Positions 52,960 through 55,776 of a DNA stretch of 64,000 bases are shown here, piece after piece (position 1 is the stretch's first letter; each line of letters starts with the position of its first letter). This stretch comes from an uncultured Thermoleophilia bacterium. Its GTDB lineage: Bacteria > Actinomycetota > Thermoleophilia > UBA2241. The notes below the pieces were generated by a model. It was not told where the DNA came from. It did no database searches and saw nothing but the letters and a program-made list of their open reading frames with translations. Location: assembly GCA_963715985.1 (NCBI GenBank), contig CAVQSP010000014.1:128001-192000 (forward strand), in the 5' to 3' direction. Made by a program: the position numbers and the translations under genes.

Positions 52960-53202
52960 ATGCGTGACGGCATCCGTGAAGCGGACGTGCAGACCGACGC
53001 CAACGGTGTGATCACGAACGTCAGGCTCGTGTTCGGACCACATCACTTCGTCGATCTCCACCGCCGGGAAGACGGCGGCGTCGACCTCGTCATGGGCACC
53101 ACCCACCATGGCTTTCGCGCCGACGCGTCCATCGTCGACAGCGAGCTCGAGCGAATCGTCAACGAGGTGCGCGAGGCGCACCCCGATCTGACGGTCGACT
53201 GA
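52960..53202 (+). CDS. Hypothetical protein, 80 aa
   Basis: AGGAGG RBS, good codon usage. Confidence 0.7.
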   Translation: MRDGIREADVQTDANGVITNVRLVFGPHHFVDLHRREDGGVDLVMGTTHHGFRADASIVDSELERIVNEVREAHPDLTVD

Positions 53203-53311
53203 CCATGGACGCCGATGAGGACATGAGCGAAGAGACTCTGACACAGCGGACTAACCATGCTCTCCGTACGCAGAAGCGGCTCTACACCATCCTCCGCTGA
53301 GAGGAGGCAAC

Positions 53312-53458
53312 ATGATCTTCTTCCTGTTCTTCATCGCTGCCGTCGTGATCGGCTACTTGATGCTCAAGTCGCCGGACTTCGCAACCGCCGTCAAGGGCGT
53401 CATCGCAGTGCTCGTCGTCATCTTCATCATCGCTGCAATCGCCGCAAGTTGCTCCTAG
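53312..53458 (+). CDS. Small two-TM membrane protein, 48 aa (not in the ORF track)
   Basis: AGGAGG RBS; MIFFLFFIAAVVIGYLMLKSPDFATAVKGVIAVLVVIFIIAAIAASCS*. Confidence 0.7.
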   Translation: MIFFLFFIAAVVIGYLMLKSPDFATAVKGVIAVLVVIFIIAAIAASCS

Positions 53459-53581
53459 ACGATATGGCTGTCTCTGTCCGCCGAGATCGTTGACGCAAGA
53501 CCGGACCCTGTTCGCATATGACGGGGGTTTGTCTGGCCGAAGACGAGCTTCGGCTGACCCCATACGAAGGAGGGTCCGGCG

Positions 53582-54658
53582 ATGGCAACCTTGTCATGGG
53601 CAGGTCTCGATGTCCACGCCCGCTCGACCGAAGCGGCGGCGCTCGACGCCGCCAGCGGCGAGCTCACGCGGCGGCGCTTCGGAGGCGGCACCGAGGCGGT
53701 GGTCGCCTGGCTCGCCGGGCTGCCGCAGCCGGTTCGGGCCTGCTACGAGGCGGGGCCGACCGGGTACGGGCTCTACCGCGCCGCCCGTGAGGCGGGCATC
53801 GCGATGCAGGTGATCGCCCCGGGCAAGACGCCCCGGGCCGCGGGCGACCGCGTCAAGAGCGACCGCAAGGACGCTGAGCTGCTGGTGCGCCTGCTGATGG
53901 CGGACGCGCTCACCCCCGTCGCCGTGCCGCCGCCCGAGGCCGAGGCGGCCCGTGACCTCAGCCGTGCCCGTGAGCAGCTGCGGGGCGACCTCATGCGGGC
54001 CCGCCACCGCGTCTCCAAGCTGCTCCTGCGCCACGGGCGCGTCTACGAGGGCAGCACCTGGACGCAGGCGCATCGCCGCTGGCTCGCCGGCCAGCGCTTC
54101 ACCCACGCGGCGACCGAGCTCGCCTACCTCGACGGTCTGGCCGCCGTGGACGGCCTTCTCGCCCGCCGCGAGGTCCTCGACCAGCGGCTCTCGCAGCTGG
54201 CGCTCGAGGATGCCTTCTGGCCGACCGTCGCGCGCCTGCGCTGCTTCCGCGGCATCGACACGCTCACGGCCCTCGCCCTGCACCTCGAGGTGCACGACTG
54301 GCGGCGCTTCGAGCGCGCCCCGCAGCTGGCCGCCTGGCTCGGGCTCACGCCCTCGCTGCACCAGTCCGGCGAGAGCTCCTCGCAGGGGGCGATCACCAAG
54401 ACCGGCTCCGCGCATGCCCGCCGGCTGCTCGTCGAGGCGGCGCACCACTACGCGCGCCCGCCGCGCCGGGGAGCCGCGCTCGCGCGGCGCCAAGCAGGCC
54501 AGAGCGACCACGTCCTGCAGACCGCCTGGCGCGCCCAGCACCGGCTCTTCCGCCTGCAGACGCGCCTGCGCGGGCGCGGCAAGCCGCCCAACGTCGCCAC
54601 CGTGGCGGCGGCGCGTGAGCTCGCCTGCTTCCTCTGGTCGGTGGCCACCGCCGACTGA
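53582..54658 (+). CDS. IS110 DEDD recombinase
   Basis: GLDVH, YEAGPTG, KSDRKDA, GLTPSLHQSG, AAAREL. Confidence 0.96.
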   Translation: MATLSWAGLDVHARSTEAAALDAASGELTRRRFGGGTEAVVAWLAGLPQPVRACYEAGPTGYGLYRAAREAGIAMQVIAPGKTPRAAGDRVKSDRKDAELLVRLLMADALTPVAVPPPEAEAARDLSRAREQLRGDLMRARHRVSKLLLRHGRVYEGSTWTQAHRRWLAGQRFTHAATELAYLDGLAAVDGLLARREVLDQRLSQLALEDAFWPTVARLRCFRGIDTLTALALHLEVHDWRRFERAPQLAAWLGLTPSLHQSGESSSQGAITKTGSAHARRLLVEAAHHYARPPRRGAALARRQAGQSDHVLQTAWRAQHRLFRLQTRLRGRGKPPNVATVAAARELACFLWSVATAD

Positions 54659-54659
54659 A

Positions 54660-54870
54660 GAGTCGGGCGCATAGCCGCCCGCTCGAGGGACGCCGCACCG
54701 CACGACGCCAGCCGGCATGCGCGTTTCTGCTATGGGCAGCCGCCCTTGCGGGGCGGTCACGCCCGCTCCTAGAGCCGCGCTCCGCCGGCGACGGAGAGAC
54801 GTCTTGGGGCGCGAAGATCCCCGCATATCAGACTGACTGACGGTCGCAGGCTGCGTGCGGCGTCCCTCCG
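54660..54870 (+). ncRNA. Bridge/seek RNA (boundaries approximate)
   Basis: Two stem-flanked internal loops whose guide segments match the target and the donor junction (see findings). Confidence 0.8.
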
Positions 54871-54947
54871 GCGGGCCTTCTCTCCGGTCTCTTCGGACCG
54901 GGTGGCAGGGCTTTGCCGCTTGACGGGAGTGCGGGCCATATCAGCAG

Positions 54948-55003
54948 ACTGCGCGTGACTGTGACGGATGAGAGAACTGCGCGTGACTGTGACGGATGAG
55001 AGA
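54948..55003. repeat. Exact 28-bp tandem duplication
   Basis: ACTGCGCGTGACTGTGACGGATGAGAGA x2. Confidence 0.95.
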
Positions 55004-55017
55004 AAGGAGGGGTAGTC

Positions 55018-55206
55018 ATGGGTGAAGTGAACTTCGTAGCCTTCGACAGTGAGAAGGGGGTGCCTACGGCGTCCACATCCGGATCGCCGGTGGACGTTGC
55101 CGACTTCCTCTCGATCTGGATGAAGAACAACAACGACGGGATCTCTCTGGCCGAGCAGCTCGGCGTGGACTTCCTGCGGCCCGGCAACCATCCTGAGGGC
55201 GAGTGA
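55018..55206 (+). CDS. Hypothetical protein, 62 aa
   Basis: AAGGAGG RBS; protein-like. Confidence 0.6.
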   Translation: MGEVNFVAFDSEKGVPTASTSGSPVDVADFLSIWMKNNNDGISLAEQLGVDFLRPGNHPEGE

Positions 55207-55389
55207 CGCCGACTCCAAGCAGATTCGATCGTCTGGCGCGGTCGGCGCGAACGTCACATGCACCTCGTGATCGTCATCTTGTCCTCGCCGGGGTGACGAT
55301 GACGAGAGTCACGACATGGGGTGTCTCACGACCAATGTCCCTGTTGGACCTCCGTTGCCATATCATCCCACATTTGGGATACTCGCGAC

Positions 55390-55776
55390 GTGAAGGCTCC
55401 CTCGTTCAGGGAGCTCATCTGGGTGGGGTCTTCGCTCAAGGACTTGCGCGGTTTCCCAGAGGAGGTGCGGCAGATCATGGGGTTCGCGTTGTACCTCGCG
55501 CAGAAGGGCGGCAAGCATCCGGCCGCGAAGCCTCTCAAGGGCTTTCGCGGCGCGGGCGTTCTCGAGGTAGTCGGCGATGACCATGGGGACGCGTATCGCG
55601 CGGTCTACACCCTTCGGTTTGCCGGTCGAATCTACGTTCTGCACGCGTTCCAGAAGAAGGCGAAGCGGGGAGCCGCTACGCCGAGGCGTGACAGAGACCT
55701 TGTCTGTGAGCGTCTGGAGCACGCGCGCCTGATTGACGCGTCGCGCCGGCGTTGTGCCGGGGGAGGTGGCGCATGA
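55390..55776 (+). CDS. RelE/HigB (Gp49-like) toxin, probably leaderless
   Basis: WVGSSLKDL..FP, YRAVY, YVLHAFQKK; TTGCCA-N17-GATACT and ATCCCA/TGGGAT palindrome just upstream. Confidence 0.9.
   Translation: MKAPSFRELIWVGSSLKDLRGFPEEVRQIMGFALYLAQKGGKHPAAKPLKGFRGAGVLEVVGDDHGDAYRAVYTLRFAGRIYVLHAFQKKAKRGAATPRRDRDLVCERLEHARLIDASRRRCAGGGGA

What the first reader, a model, noticed from the sequence alone, without database searches (positions are those of the whole stretch)
53451..54948. IS110/IS1111 element whose bridge RNA guides can be read and match both target and donor
Seen: left junction GCTCCT-AG-ACGATATGGC and right junction GCCATATC-AG-CAGA give target GCTCCT[AG]CAGA and circle junction CATATC[AG]ACG. 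In the 3' non-coding region, loop 1 (closed by GCGCG/CGCGC and GGGC/GCCC) holds TCTGCT (54726-31, reverse complement of AGCAGA) and GCTCCTAG (54765-72). Loop 2 (inner stem GGGG/CCCC) holds CGTCT (54800-04, reverse complement of AGACG) and CATATCAG (54824-31). All four guides match exactly. Established: IS110-family recombinases use such bispecific RNAs, and IS1111-type elements have subterminal IRs and a 3' RNA. Inference: an intact, on-target, probably active and reprogrammable system. The core overlaps the TAG stop of the 48-aa ORF, so insertion left that gene intact.
Basis: partly seen in the sequence, partly recalled or inferred. Interest (0 to 1): 0.8.

Follow-up and report, generated by a model that had tools for sequence, protein, structure and literature searches.

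The report
RNA-guided insertion sequence with readable guides
This is an intact jumping gene of the IS110/IS1111 type whose own small RNA spells out both the genomic site it sits in and its own ends, a mechanism described in 2024, so it is a well-documented new example and not a new kind of system.

Summary
A 1486-bp element (window 53459-54944) carries a 358-aa DEDD transposase (IS110 family, Pfam and NCBIfam above cut-off), 8-bp subterminal inverted repeats, an AG core at both junctions and a 286-nt 3' non-coding region.

An empty orthologous site in a relative (G019) confirms the boundaries. Across 57 parsed insertions of homologous elements in Thermoleophilia genomes, the 4-nt right-target guide is complementary to the right flank in 40 (4/4) and 13 (3/4). 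No permutation reached this. The donor guides covary with the element ends. The RNA stems show compensatory changes (10 of 20 pairs).

This is an IS1111-type bridge/seekRNA system, a new member of a known kind. Activity is not shown: there are no RNA data and no circle junction. The genome holds two copies 1.3% apart, and the second has its guide loop split by a nested IS. Twelve minimal target sites remain unoccupied. Interest is modest.

The parts
53451..53456 (+). Left target half (host DNA) GCTCCT. It holds the last codons of a 48-aa ORF.
   Evidence: The orthologous empty site in G019 reads GCTCTTGA at this place.
53457..53458 (+). Core dinucleotide AG at the left junction. It completes the TAG stop of the 48-aa ORF.
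   Evidence: AG is found at the left junction of all 65 homologous left junctions parsed, although the parsing pattern required A[GA] there.
53459..54944 (+). The insertion sequence, 1486 bp, counting the right-hand AG as part of it.
   Evidence: A second copy at G000:C17 is 99% identical over exactly this span.
53459..53463 (+). Left end (left donor half) ACGAT. Its first three bases are read by the left donor guide.
   Evidence: Left-end positions 3 and 4 covary with the guide in homologues.
53461..53468 (+). Left subterminal inverted repeat GATATGGC.
   Evidence: It is an 8-bp perfect complement of 54935-42. Homologues have up to 14 bp.
53506..53526 (+). Terminator-like hairpin in the 123-nt 5' non-coding region. 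Its role is not tested.
53582..54658 (+). Transposase/recombinase gene, 358 aa, of the DEDD type. Motifs GLDVH (D10), CYEAG (E56), KSDRKDA (D94, D97) and GLTPSLHQSG (S262).
   Evidence: Pfam PF01548 (1.8e-15) and PF02371 (1.6e-19). NCBIfam NF033542 at 219.7 bits against a cut-off of 140, covering model positions 1-339 of 343.
54713..54787 (+). Target-binding module of the bridge/seekRNA. It comprises an outer stem (54713-15 with 54785-87), stem P1 (54719-22 with 54777-80), an internal loop, an inner stem (54733-37 with 54761-65) and an apical stem (54740-42 with 54754-56).
   Evidence: RNAalifold and pair counts on 44 homologues gave 15 pairs in this module, 9 of them with changes on both sides.
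54726..54731 (+). Right target guide TCTG plus core complement CT. It pairs with the top strand AG+CAGA.
   Evidence: For covariation, 40 of 57 insertions match 4/4 and 13 match 3/4. With one insertion per guide class, 116 of 132 positions match against a permutation mean of 39.8, and 0 of 10000 permutations reach this.
54765..54772 (+). Left target guide GCTCCT plus core AG, in the same sense as the left flank, so it pairs with the bottom strand. It contains the only CTAG in the element (54769).
   Evidence: Covariation is seen at -2 (58 of 62 match, 0 of 5000 permutations reach this) and weakly at -3 (26 of 62, 37 of 5000). There is none at -4 to -6.
54800..54804 (+). Left donor guide CGTCT, the reverse complement of AG+ACG at the left end.
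   Evidence: The guide covaries with left-end position 3 (17 of 21 combinations against 11.9, 1 of 5000 permutations) and position 4 (11 of 21 against 6.7, 25 of 5000).
54805..54823 (+). Hairpin between the two donor guides (TGGGG with CCCCG).
   Evidence: All 5 pairs are kept in 44 of 44 sequences. One pair switches from C-G to G-C in 17 of them.
54824..54833 (+). Right donor guide CATATC plus core AG plus AC. This equals the predicted circle junction (right end, AG, left end).
   Evidence: All 19 homologues with right end ...ATAAGAG have the guide ...ATAAGAG, and all 38 with ...TCAG have ...TCAG. The tree needs 2 switches, and 1 is not excluded.
54920..54925 (+). TTGACG, a -35-like hexamer 19 nt from the right terminus. 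It may be half of a promoter completed at the circle junction (inferred).
   Evidence: TTGAC lies 18-19 nt from the terminus in 36 of 37 distinct element types. Junction promoters are reported for ISEc11 and ISEc21 (PMC11187229, sections read). No matching -10 was identified here.
54935..54942 (+). Right subterminal inverted repeat GCCATATC.
54943..54944 (+). Core dinucleotide AG at the right junction.
54945..54948 (+). Right target half (host DNA) CAGA.
   Evidence: It is present in the empty site of G019 and at the second copy.

Best explanation
Window 53459-54944 is an intact IS1111-type member of the IS110 family.

How it is proposed to work (inferred from the published mechanism): it encodes a DEDD recombinase and, in its 3' non-coding region, a structured bispecific guide RNA (bridge RNA or seekRNA). 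One internal loop carries two short guides that pair with opposite strands of the target, overlapping at the AG core. The right guide reads AG plus 4 nt of the right flank. The left guide reads about 2-3 nt of the left flank plus AG. A second pair of guides flanks a hairpin and reads the abutted element ends (right end, AG, left end) of the excised circle. Recombination at the AG core inserts the element without a duplication. AG is left at both junctions, so the TAG stop codon it landed on is regenerated.

Shown here: the anatomy, exact guide-to-flank and guide-to-end matches, the boundaries, conserved RNA structure, and family-wide covariation of all four guides with their DNA partners.

Inferred: that the RNA is made and bound by the recombinase, that a circle forms, and that this copy still moves.

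In this clade the target code is short and half fixed. An almost invariant (C/T)TAG is followed by 4 freely varying bases, in genomes where CTAG is about 15-fold depleted.
For: 1. Family: PF01548 and PF02371; NF033542 at 219.7 bits against a cut-off of 140; catalytic motifs present.
2. All four guides match exactly. Chance expectation per 286 nt is 0.065, 0.00046, 0.37 and 0.00036.
3. Boundaries: the empty orthologous site in G019 and the second copy at G000:C17, whose identity ends at the same bases.
4. Right target guide against right flank in homologues: of 82 copies, 57 were parsed. Of these, 40 match 4/4, 13 match 3/4, 2 match 2/4, 1 matches 1/4 and 1 matches 0/4. With one per guide class (n=33), 116 of 132 positions match against a permutation mean of 39.8, and 0 of 10000 permutations reach this.
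5. Left target guide: position -2 matches in 58 of 62 (C with C 44 times, T with T 14 times), and 0 of 5000 permutations reach this.
6. Donor guides covary with the ends.
7. RNA structure: 96.2% of cells are paired against 83.3% when shuffled. Covariation score is 0.313 against 0.107, reached by 0 of 500 shuffles. Slid controls give 22-50% paired.
8. The guide order (top-strand match 5' of bottom-strand match) and the 3' non-coding region fit the IS1111 type as described in PMC11187229 (sections read).
9. The transposase is under purifying selection between the two copies: 13 nucleotide differences in the ORF give only 2 amino-acid changes.
Against: - No RNA evidence. No run held half of the stretch, the RNA runs listed held 0.05-0.06 of the sampled words, and none of them was laid.
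- No circle junction was seen in the four runs laid.
- Rfam 15 gives no match.
- The genome holds only two copies, which differ by 1.3%. Twelve CTAGCAGA sites are unoccupied.
- Left-guide positions -4 to -6 show no family covariation (10, 13 and 21 of 62, at permutation level).
- The 5-nt left donor guide is expected 0.37 times by chance. In most relatives the guide mismatches the A of the core and the first A of the left end.
- The switch of right donor guide and right end needs only 1-2 events on the tree.
- The outer closure of the donor loop is not established.
- The single-sequence fold is only moderately better than shuffles (z = -3.14).
- The inverted repeats (8 bp) and terminal extensions (2-3 nt each side) differ from the usual IS1111 description of 11-13 bp and 7/3 nt (PMC11187229, passage).
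Confidence: 0.9

Rival explanations
1. The element is a well-preserved but currently immobile copy. The guide-to-flank matches record a past on-target insertion, and nothing moves today.
For: - The genome holds two copies only, and they differ at 20 positions in 1486.
- Copy 2 has its target loop split by a nested 1.9-kb IS.
- Twelve minimal target sites are unoccupied.
- No circle junction was found in the runs laid.
Against: - Both transposase ORFs are full length. There are 13 nucleotide differences in the ORF but only 2 amino-acid differences.
- Guides, stems and ends of copy 1 are intact.
- Close relatives in other genomes exist as 99.9-100% identical multi-copy sets, which shows recent movement in the clade.
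- Metagenome contigs cannot exclude rare circles.
Confidence: 0.35
2. Only the first loop (the target-seeking part, seekRNA sense) is functional RNA guidance. The ends are recognised by the protein through the inverted repeats, and the 'loop 2' matches are leftovers of shared sequence and not donor guides.
For: - PMC11187229 reports that a short 82-nt seekRNA suffices for ISEc11 (section read).
- The left donor guide is only 5 nt, expected 0.37 times by chance.
- Most relatives carry mismatches to the core A and to the first base of the left end.
- The switch of right donor guide and right end may be a single event.
- The outer closure of loop 2 was not found.
Against: - There is a 10-nt exact match to the predicted circle junction.
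- Coordinated TC-to-AG changes occur in both the right end and the guide in 19 of 19 elements.
- The left guide covaries with left-end positions 3 and 4, reached by 1 and 25 of 5000 permutations.
- The hairpin between the two guides is kept in 44 of 44 sequences, with one compensatory pair.
- PMC11208160 reports donor-binding nucleotides in IS1111 bridge RNAs, often in a multi-loop (passage).
Confidence: 0.12
3. It belongs not to the IS1111 group proper but to one of the IS110-group lineages that happen to carry a 3' non-coding region.
For: - PMC11187229 notes IS110-type lineages with a downstream non-coding region.
- It also gives a tight transposase length range of 330-350 aa for IS1111 types, and this one is 358 aa.
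- Inverted repeats are 8 bp, not the usual 11-13, and terminal extensions are 2-3 nt, not 7/3.
- No phylogeny with IS1111 reference sequences was made here.
Against: - Subterminal inverted repeats are present, up to 14 bp in relatives.
- The 3' non-coding region is 286 nt against 123 nt at the 5' side.
- The GL-P----SG motif is present.
- The guide order is the IS1111 one (top-strand match first) and opposite to ISEc21 and IS621.
- The solved IS110-group recombinases IS621 and ISCro4 match only weakly (E 8e-5 and 5e-6).
- The closest named relative, ISEc45 (39% identity), also shows a 10-bp inverted repeat pair with about 250 nt downstream of its gene.
Confidence: 0.2
4. The string matches are chance, and the 3' region is ordinary untranslated DNA.
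For: - A window-wide dinucleotide shuffle gives at least 2 copies of GCTCCTAG in 30 of 100 shuffles.
- CGTCT is common.
Against: - The joint expectation from genome k-mer frequencies is about 4e-9 (product of the values).
- There is family-wide covariation of guides with flanks and of stems.
Confidence: 0.01

Closest known systems
IS1111-family insertion sequences with a 3' seekRNA (ISEc11, ISPa11, ISKpn4, ISPst6; Siddiquee et al. 2024, PMC11187229; abstract and sections 6, 9, 10, 12, 13 read)
   Same: - DEDD transposase with PF02371 C-terminal domain and GL-P----S/TG motif.
- Subterminal inverted repeats.
- Long non-coding region downstream of the gene.
- Two short RNA segments matching opposite strands of the target and overlapping at the insertion point, with the top-strand match 5' of the bottom-strand match.
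- No target duplication.
- Natural retargeting by guide changes in relatives.
   Different: - Inverted repeats are 8 bp here, not the usual 11-13.
- Terminal extensions are 2-3 nt on each side, not 7/3.
- The transposase is 358 aa, not 330-350.
- The target code is much shorter and half fixed ((C/T)TAG plus 4 nt), against, for example, 13 bp compared for ISEc11 and ISXne4.
- The host is Thermoleophilia (Actinomycetota).
- Nothing about this element has been tested at the bench.
IS621 bridge RNA system (IS110 group; Durrant et al. 2024, PMC11208160, passages read; structures 8wt6 and others)
   Same: - One RNA with a target-binding and a donor-binding part.
- Each part has a left guide pairing with the bottom strand and a right guide pairing with the top strand.
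- All four guides include the core dinucleotide, and the core is kept at both junctions.
   Different: - The RNA is in the right end (3'), not the left end.
- Guide order within the target loop is reversed.
- The core is AG, not CT.
- The guides are shorter.
- The donor part is not shown to be a simple closed internal loop.
- Protein similarity to IS621 is weak (E 8e-5, C-terminal domain only).
ISEc45 (named 'IS110-like element ISEc45 family transposase' in an E. coli plasmid record)
   Same: - It is the closest named relative found: 39% identity over residues 5-357.
- It has a candidate 10-bp inverted repeat pair, TATGACCTTT / AAAGGTCATA, leaving about 55 nt upstream and about 250 nt downstream of the gene.
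   Different: - It is distant in sequence.
- Its guides and target were not examined here.
- Its group assignment was not found in the two papers read (0 occurrences).

Membership tests
IS110 family (DEDD RNA-guided transposases) | Transposase with an N-terminal DEDD RuvC-like domain (PF01548) and a C-terminal PF02371 domain | tested here: met
   PF01548 E 1.8e-15 over residues 7-149. PF02371 E 1.6e-19 over residues 218-292. NF033542 at 219.7 bits against a cut-off of 140.
IS110 family (DEDD RNA-guided transposases) | Catalytic D-E-D-D residues and the conserved S/T-G of the C-terminal finger | tested here: met
   D10, E56, D94, D97 and S262-G263 lie in motifs that align with ISCro4 9t56. Catalysis itself was not tested.
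IS110 family (DEDD RNA-guided transposases) | Site-specific insertion without target duplication, with a shared core dinucleotide at both junctions | tested here: met
   AG lies at both junctions. The empty site in G019 shows no further duplication. The second copy has the same junction form.
IS1111 group | Subterminal inverted repeats (7-17 bp in PMC11208160; usually 11-13 bp in PMC11187229) | tested here: met
   There is an 8-bp perfect pair at 53461-68 and 54935-42. This is inside the first range and shorter than the second. Relatives reach 14 bp.
IS1111 group | Longer non-coding region downstream of the transposase gene, holding the RNA | tested here: met
   286 nt downstream against 123 nt upstream. 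The conserved structure lies in the downstream part.
IS1111 group | In the RNA, the top-strand match lies 5' of the bottom-strand match | tested here: met
   TCTGCT (pairs with the top strand) at 54726-31 precedes GCTCCTAG (pairs with the bottom strand) at 54765-72. The rule is taken from PMC11187229.
IS1111 group | Asymmetric terminal extensions beyond the repeats, 7 (or 6) bp left and 3 bp right (a description in PMC11187229, not its stated definition) | tested here: not met
   Here the extensions are AC (or AGAC) on the left and AG (or none) on the right. Relatives have ACC/CAG. This is a descriptive trait, and I treat it as marking a variant, not as exclusion.
IS1111 group | Transposase related over its full length to that of IS1111 and falling in the IS1111 branch of the tree | not tested
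   No IS1111 reference sequence was on hand. Indirect evidence only: a weak match to the IS110-group proteins IS621 and ISCro4, and the closest named relative ISEc45 has an IS1111-like layout.
Bridge RNA / seekRNA | Guides covary with target flanks across related elements | tested here: met
   Right guide: 116 of 132 positions against a permutation mean of 39.8, reached by 0 of 10000 permutations. Left guide position -2: 58 of 62, reached by 0 of 5000.
Bridge RNA / seekRNA | A second pair of guides matches the joined element ends (donor) and covaries with them | tested here: met
   The match to the ends is exact. There is covariation with left-end positions 3 and 4 and with the right-end TC/AG switch. 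The right-end switch rests on 1-2 events, and the loop closure is unresolved.
Bridge RNA / seekRNA | Conserved secondary structure placing the guides in loops | tested here: met
   Twenty pairs, 10 with changes on both sides, 96.2% of cells paired.
Bridge RNA / seekRNA | The RNA is expressed and bound by the recombinase, and is required for excision and insertion | not testable with these tools
   No RNA run held the stretch. No bench data exist.

The most novel reading that the evidence does not exclude
This Thermoleophilia clade runs RNA-guided transposition on a minimal, half-fixed code.

- The anchor is an almost invariant (C/T)TAG. It exploits a tetranucleotide that the host genome avoids about 15-fold (824 CTAG against about 12000 expected). 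To this are added only four freely reprogrammable bases, about 8-9 bp of specificity in all.
- The clade's natural variation gives direct comparative evidence that IS1111-type elements use a true two-sided bridge RNA (donor guides covarying with the ends), and not only a target-seeking RNA.
- A side effect follows. The left-guide DNA is the only CTAG inside the element, which makes it a landing pad for CTAG-specific DDE insertion sequences that split the guide loop. This was seen three times independently (copy 2 here, and L077 and L083 in opposite orientations).
Probability: 0.35. Interest if true: 0.45.

Novelty: new member of a known kind. Interest (0 to 1): 0.3.

Why it matters
The mechanism is already published, so the element adds no new principle. 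Its value is as a clean, fully readable example from an uncultured actinobacterial lineage, together with a natural 'reprogramming series'. That series has 33 guide classes in which four RNA bases track four flank bases.

It also suggests that very short guides can suffice where the fixed part of the target is a rare word in the genome. It gives comparative support for donor-end reading by the RNA in an IS1111-type clade. Both points could inform the choice of compact recombinase and guide pairs for engineering, but each needs bench confirmation.

Tried and rejected
- Rfam 15 scan of 53000-55500 at E up to 10 gave only two sub-threshold chance hits, with no bridge-RNA family.
- The single-sequence fold of the 3' region gave z = -3.14. 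It pairs parts of the guides with each other, which covariation does not support.
- The naive longest-inverted-repeat search between element ends was noisy. It was replaced by a junction pattern.
- That pattern and the guide patterns failed on 25 of 82 copies for the right-flank test and on 20 of 82 for the left-flank test. Causes were contig ends, nested insertions, or ends that differ from the pattern, for example L033, L038-L044, L048, L056, L068, L099 and L103-L106. These copies were not counted and not inspected further.
- L008 (G024) was dropped because it is identical to L027.
- The first regex pass mis-parsed L030, L037, L058 and L100. It was corrected.
- Stop-codon targeting was tested. 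The left-junction TAG ends an open stretch of at least 100 codons in 24 of 63 insertions. Controls at other YTAG sites gave 59 of 253 in flanks and 13 of 38 in the window. This is too weak to claim a preference.
- Outer closure of the donor loop: a column-wise scan gave no clean helix. In copy 1, GCGAC (54788-92) could pair with GTCGC (54843-47), but this is unsupported.
- Junction promoter: a conserved TTGAC lies 18-19 nt from the right terminus. No convincing -10 was found in the left end, and the promoter scan of the integrated element found none.
- Public runs: no run held half of the stretch. Four runs were laid. The raw-read run X22 had 0 reads on it. There was no circle junction. One 151-nt contig of X2 (depth 3) joins 53454 to 55009 like an empty site of a relative. 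This is weak and was not used as evidence.
- Literature on this clade: searches 'IS1111'+'CTAG' (2 unrelated papers), 'bridge RNA'+'Solirubrobacter' (0 papers) and 'ISEc45' (12 papers, listing only, none on mechanism) found no description. Supplementary tables of PMC11208160 and PMC11187229 (element lists, target logos) could not be seen and may already include relatives.
Full report
**What is there.** Reading 53101-55300 confirms every string and coordinate in the finding.
- Left junction: GCTCCT (53451-56), AG (53457-58), ACGATATGGC (53459-68).
- Right junction: GCCATATC (54935-42), AG (54943-44), CAGA (54945-48).
- The ends carry an 8-bp perfect inverted repeat, GATATGGC (53461-68) with GCCATATC (54935-42).
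- Between them lies one long ORF (53582-54658, 358 aa). It matches Pfam DEDD_Tnp_IS110 (E 1.8e-15) and Transposase_20 (E 1.6e-19). It matches NCBIfam NF033542 'IS110 family RNA-guided transposase' at 219.7 bits against a cut-off of 140, over model positions 1-339 of 343.
- The motifs that hold the catalytic D, E, D, D and the conserved S-G are present: D10, E56, D94, D97 and S262. They align with the solved ISCro4 transposase. Overall similarity to the solved IS110-group proteins is weak (9t56 E 5e-6; IS621 8wt6 E 8e-5).
- The gene is preceded by 123 nt and followed by 286 nt of non-coding DNA.

**The four guides.** A script check gives the following.
- TCTGCT (54726-31) is the reverse complement of AG+CAGA.
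- GCTCCTAG (54765-72) equals left flank plus AG.
- CGTCT (54800-04) is the reverse complement of AG+ACG.
- CATATCAGAC (54824-33) equals right end, AG and the first two bases of the left end, which is the predicted circle junction.

Using this genome's own k-mer frequencies, the expected number of hits in 286 nt is 0.065, 0.00046, 0.37 and 0.00036 for the 6-, 8-, 5- and 8-mers. The 5-mer alone means nothing, but the set is far beyond chance. Window-wide dinucleotide shuffles are a weaker control. For GCTCCTAG, 30 of 100 shuffles reach 2 hits in 64 kb. For the 10-mer, 3 of 100 reach 1 hit.

**Boundaries.** Two copies alone could not fix the ends, because both share CTAG on the left and CAGA on the right. 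A relative's genome (G019) holds the uninterrupted locus. The small ORF there ends ...GTTGCTCTTGA and runs straight into CAGACT... and the downstream 62-aa gene. So CAGA is host DNA, and the element is 53459-54944 to within the repeated AG.

**Second copy.** G000 holds exactly two copies of this transposase.
- Copy 2 (G000:C17, locus L006 read on the minus strand) is flanked by GGCAGCT-AG on the left and AG-CAGAAC on the right.
- Its right flank matches the guide. Its left flank matches at -1, -2, -5 and -6 but not at -3 and -4. It also sits on the TAG stop of a 340-aa ORF.
- The two copies differ at 2 positions in the 5' region and at 13 in the ORF, which give only 2 amino-acid changes. They differ at 5 in the 3' region, one of which turns the left donor guide from C to T, leaving a possible G-U pair.
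- Copy 2 is split immediately after the left target guide by a 1928-bp insertion with a 6-bp duplication (CCTAGA). The insertion has inverted ends and a frameshifted transposase with a weak DDE_Tnp_1 match (E 3e-4, below Pfam's cut-off).

**Homologues and covariation.** A scan of one genome per species returned 80 loci with relatives at 53-80% protein identity. Nearly all are from Thermoleophilia, Solirubrobacterales or Gaiellales metagenome-assembled genomes, and many are multi-copy. With the two local copies this makes 82 copies. L008 was dropped as identical to L027. Junctions and guides were parsed by pattern.

*Right target guide.* The four bases just 5' of a CT that precedes a conserved ATG(A/G)GC were compared with the first four bases of the right flank. 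Of 82 copies, 57 could be parsed.
- 40 match 4/4, 13 match 3/4, 2 match 2/4, 1 matches 1/4 and 1 matches 0/4.
- Taking one insertion per guide class (33 classes), 116 of 132 positions match against a permutation mean of 39.8. None of 10000 permutations reached this.
- The misses include L057, L064 and L065, whose guide region is shifted or altered, and L034-L036, which share one mismatch next to the core.

*Left target guide* (62 copies parsed).
- Position -1 matches in 61 of 62.
- Position -2 matches in 58 of 62 (C with C 44 times, T with T 14 times), reached by 0 of 5000 permutations.
- Position -3 matches in 26 of 62 against 20.8 expected, reached by 37 of 5000 permutations.
- Positions -4, -5 and -6 match in 10, 13 and 21 of 62, at permutation level.
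- The family-wide left guide is therefore about (C)(C/T)T plus AG. The further three matches in copy 1 have no comparative support.

*Donor guides*.
- Across 21 distinct combinations of left end and guide, the guide follows left-end position 3 in 17 of 21 against 11.9 (1 of 5000 permutations). It follows position 4 in 11 of 21 against 6.7 (25 of 5000).
- Most relatives carry a C opposite the A of the core and some opposite the first A of the left end, so this pairing is imperfect.
- All 19 elements whose right end reads ...ATAAGAG have ...ATAAGAG in the guide. All 38 with ...TCAG have ...TCAG. Four of these (L035, L036, L037, L049) have a 2-nt insertion in the guide.
- On a transposase tree of 37 distinct proteins this switch needs two changes, and one is not excluded. 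It is therefore strong chemistry but few events.

**RNA structure.** An alignment of 44 distinct 3' regions folds into the following.
- An outer stem, stem P1, an internal loop carrying the two target guides on opposite sides, an inner stem and an apical stem.
- A separate hairpin that lies between the two donor guides.

Ten of 20 pairs show changes on both sides. 96.2% of cells are paired against 83.3% after shuffling. The covariation score is 0.313 against 0.107, reached by 0 of 500 shuffles. Sliding the partners by 1-3 columns drops pairing to 22-50%. What closes the donor guides on the outside was not resolved. PMC11208160 notes that many IS1111 bridge RNAs hold donor-binding bases in a multi-loop (passage read).

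**Comparison with what is known.** Two 2024 papers describe this mechanism.
- Durrant et al. (PMC11208160; passages read) describe bridge RNAs with left guides pairing to the bottom strand and right guides to the top strand. All four include the core dinucleotide. They predict such RNAs in the right end of 93% of IS1111 elements.
- Siddiquee et al. (PMC11187229; abstract and sections 6, 9, 10, 12, 13 read) show that IS1111-type elements carry the RNA downstream of the gene. The top-strand match lies 5' of the bottom-strand match. Flanks must match the RNA for excision, and relatives are naturally redirected by guide changes.

The present element fits on every one of these points. It departs in four respects.
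- The inverted repeats are shorter (8 bp).
- The terminal extensions are 2-3 nt on both sides, not 7/3.
- The protein is slightly longer.
- The target code is very short and half fixed.

Its place on a tree with IS1111 references was not tested. The closest named relative found, ISEc45 (39% identity), shows an IS1111-like layout. I file it as a new member of a known kind, IS1111-type by architecture.

**Activity.** Nothing here shows movement of this copy. No public run held half of the stretch. The four runs laid gave no circle junction, and one raw-read run had no reads on the stretch.

The genome is 70% G+C and holds 824 CTAG against about 11990 expected from base composition. Twelve CTAGCAGA sites are unoccupied, three of them preceded by C.

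In favour of function: both ORFs are intact and conserved at the protein level. Guides, stems and ends of copy 1 are intact. Sister elements in other genomes occur as 99.9-100% identical multi-copy sets.

**Stop codons.** Both local copies sit on TAG stops. Across the family, the left-junction TAG ends an open stretch of at least 100 codons in 24 of 63 cases. The figure is 59 of 253 for other YTAG sites in the flanks and 13 of 38 in the window. I read this as a by-product of needing TAG in a high-G+C genome, not as a demonstrated preference.

**Verdict.** The system is of a published kind, so novelty and interest are modest. The points worth keeping are the minimal (C/T)TAG+4 code, the comparative support for donor-end reading in an IS1111-type clade, and the repeated destruction of the guide loop by CTAG-specific insertion sequences.

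Noticed in passing
L006:1214-3141 (G000:C17; copy 2 of the element, read on the minus strand): A 1928-bp insertion sequence sits exactly in the left-target-guide DNA of copy 2. It has inverted ends, a 6-bp duplication CCTAGA and a frameshifted transposase with a weak DDE_Tnp_1 match (E 3e-4, below cut-off). The insertion splits the target loop of that copy's RNA.
   Followed up: partly
L077:3692-4835 and L083:3692-4835: In another genome, two copies of a related element are each interrupted at the same CTAG of the left target guide by the same 1144-bp IS (99.9% identical). The IS lies in opposite orientations, with a 4-bp CTAG on both sides, so these are two independent hits. The guide CTAG is the only CTAG inside the window's element (at 54769).
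   Followed up: partly
window 54948-55004: A perfect 28-bp tandem duplication (2.0 copies) starts four bases after the right end of the element, upstream of the 62-aa ORF at 55018. The empty orthologous site in G019 has a single copy of the unit. Any link to the insertion is unknown.
   Followed up: partly
whole genome G000: CTAG is about 15-fold under-represented: 824 sites against about 11990 expected at 70% G+C. CTAGCAGA occurs 12 times unoccupied, while its reversed control word occurs 295 times.
   Followed up: partly
window 54920-54925, and the right ends of L027-L100: TTGAC(A/G) lies 18-19 nt from the right terminus in 36 of 37 distinct element types. It is a likely -35 box for a promoter completed when the ends are joined. 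No convincing -10 was found in the left end.
   Followed up: partly
window 53506-53526: There is a terminator-like hairpin followed by a T-rich tail in the 5' non-coding region, just inside the left end. The same sequence is present in copy 2 and L027. It may block read-through into the transposase gene.
   Followed up: no
L035, L036, L053, L054 (right flanks): Elements from two different subclades and genomes share the right flank CTGTAGTTCC. This suggests a repeated sequence, perhaps the end of another mobile element, as a common target.
   Followed up: no
L034:3574-3882: One copy has a 22-nt internal duplication inside the target-loop hairpin. It includes part of the left guide region, making its 3' region 308 nt against 286 nt in its sister copies.
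   Followed up: no
G000:C14:194375-194554 (outside the window): A stretch 82% identical to the region of the 62-aa ORF downstream of the element lies about 10 kb further on in the same contig.
   Followed up: no
window 53454 / 55009, run X2: One 151-nt metagenome contig (depth 3) joins 53454 to 55009, skipping the element and the repeat. It looks like an empty-site allele of a relative. This is a single weak record.
   Followed up: no
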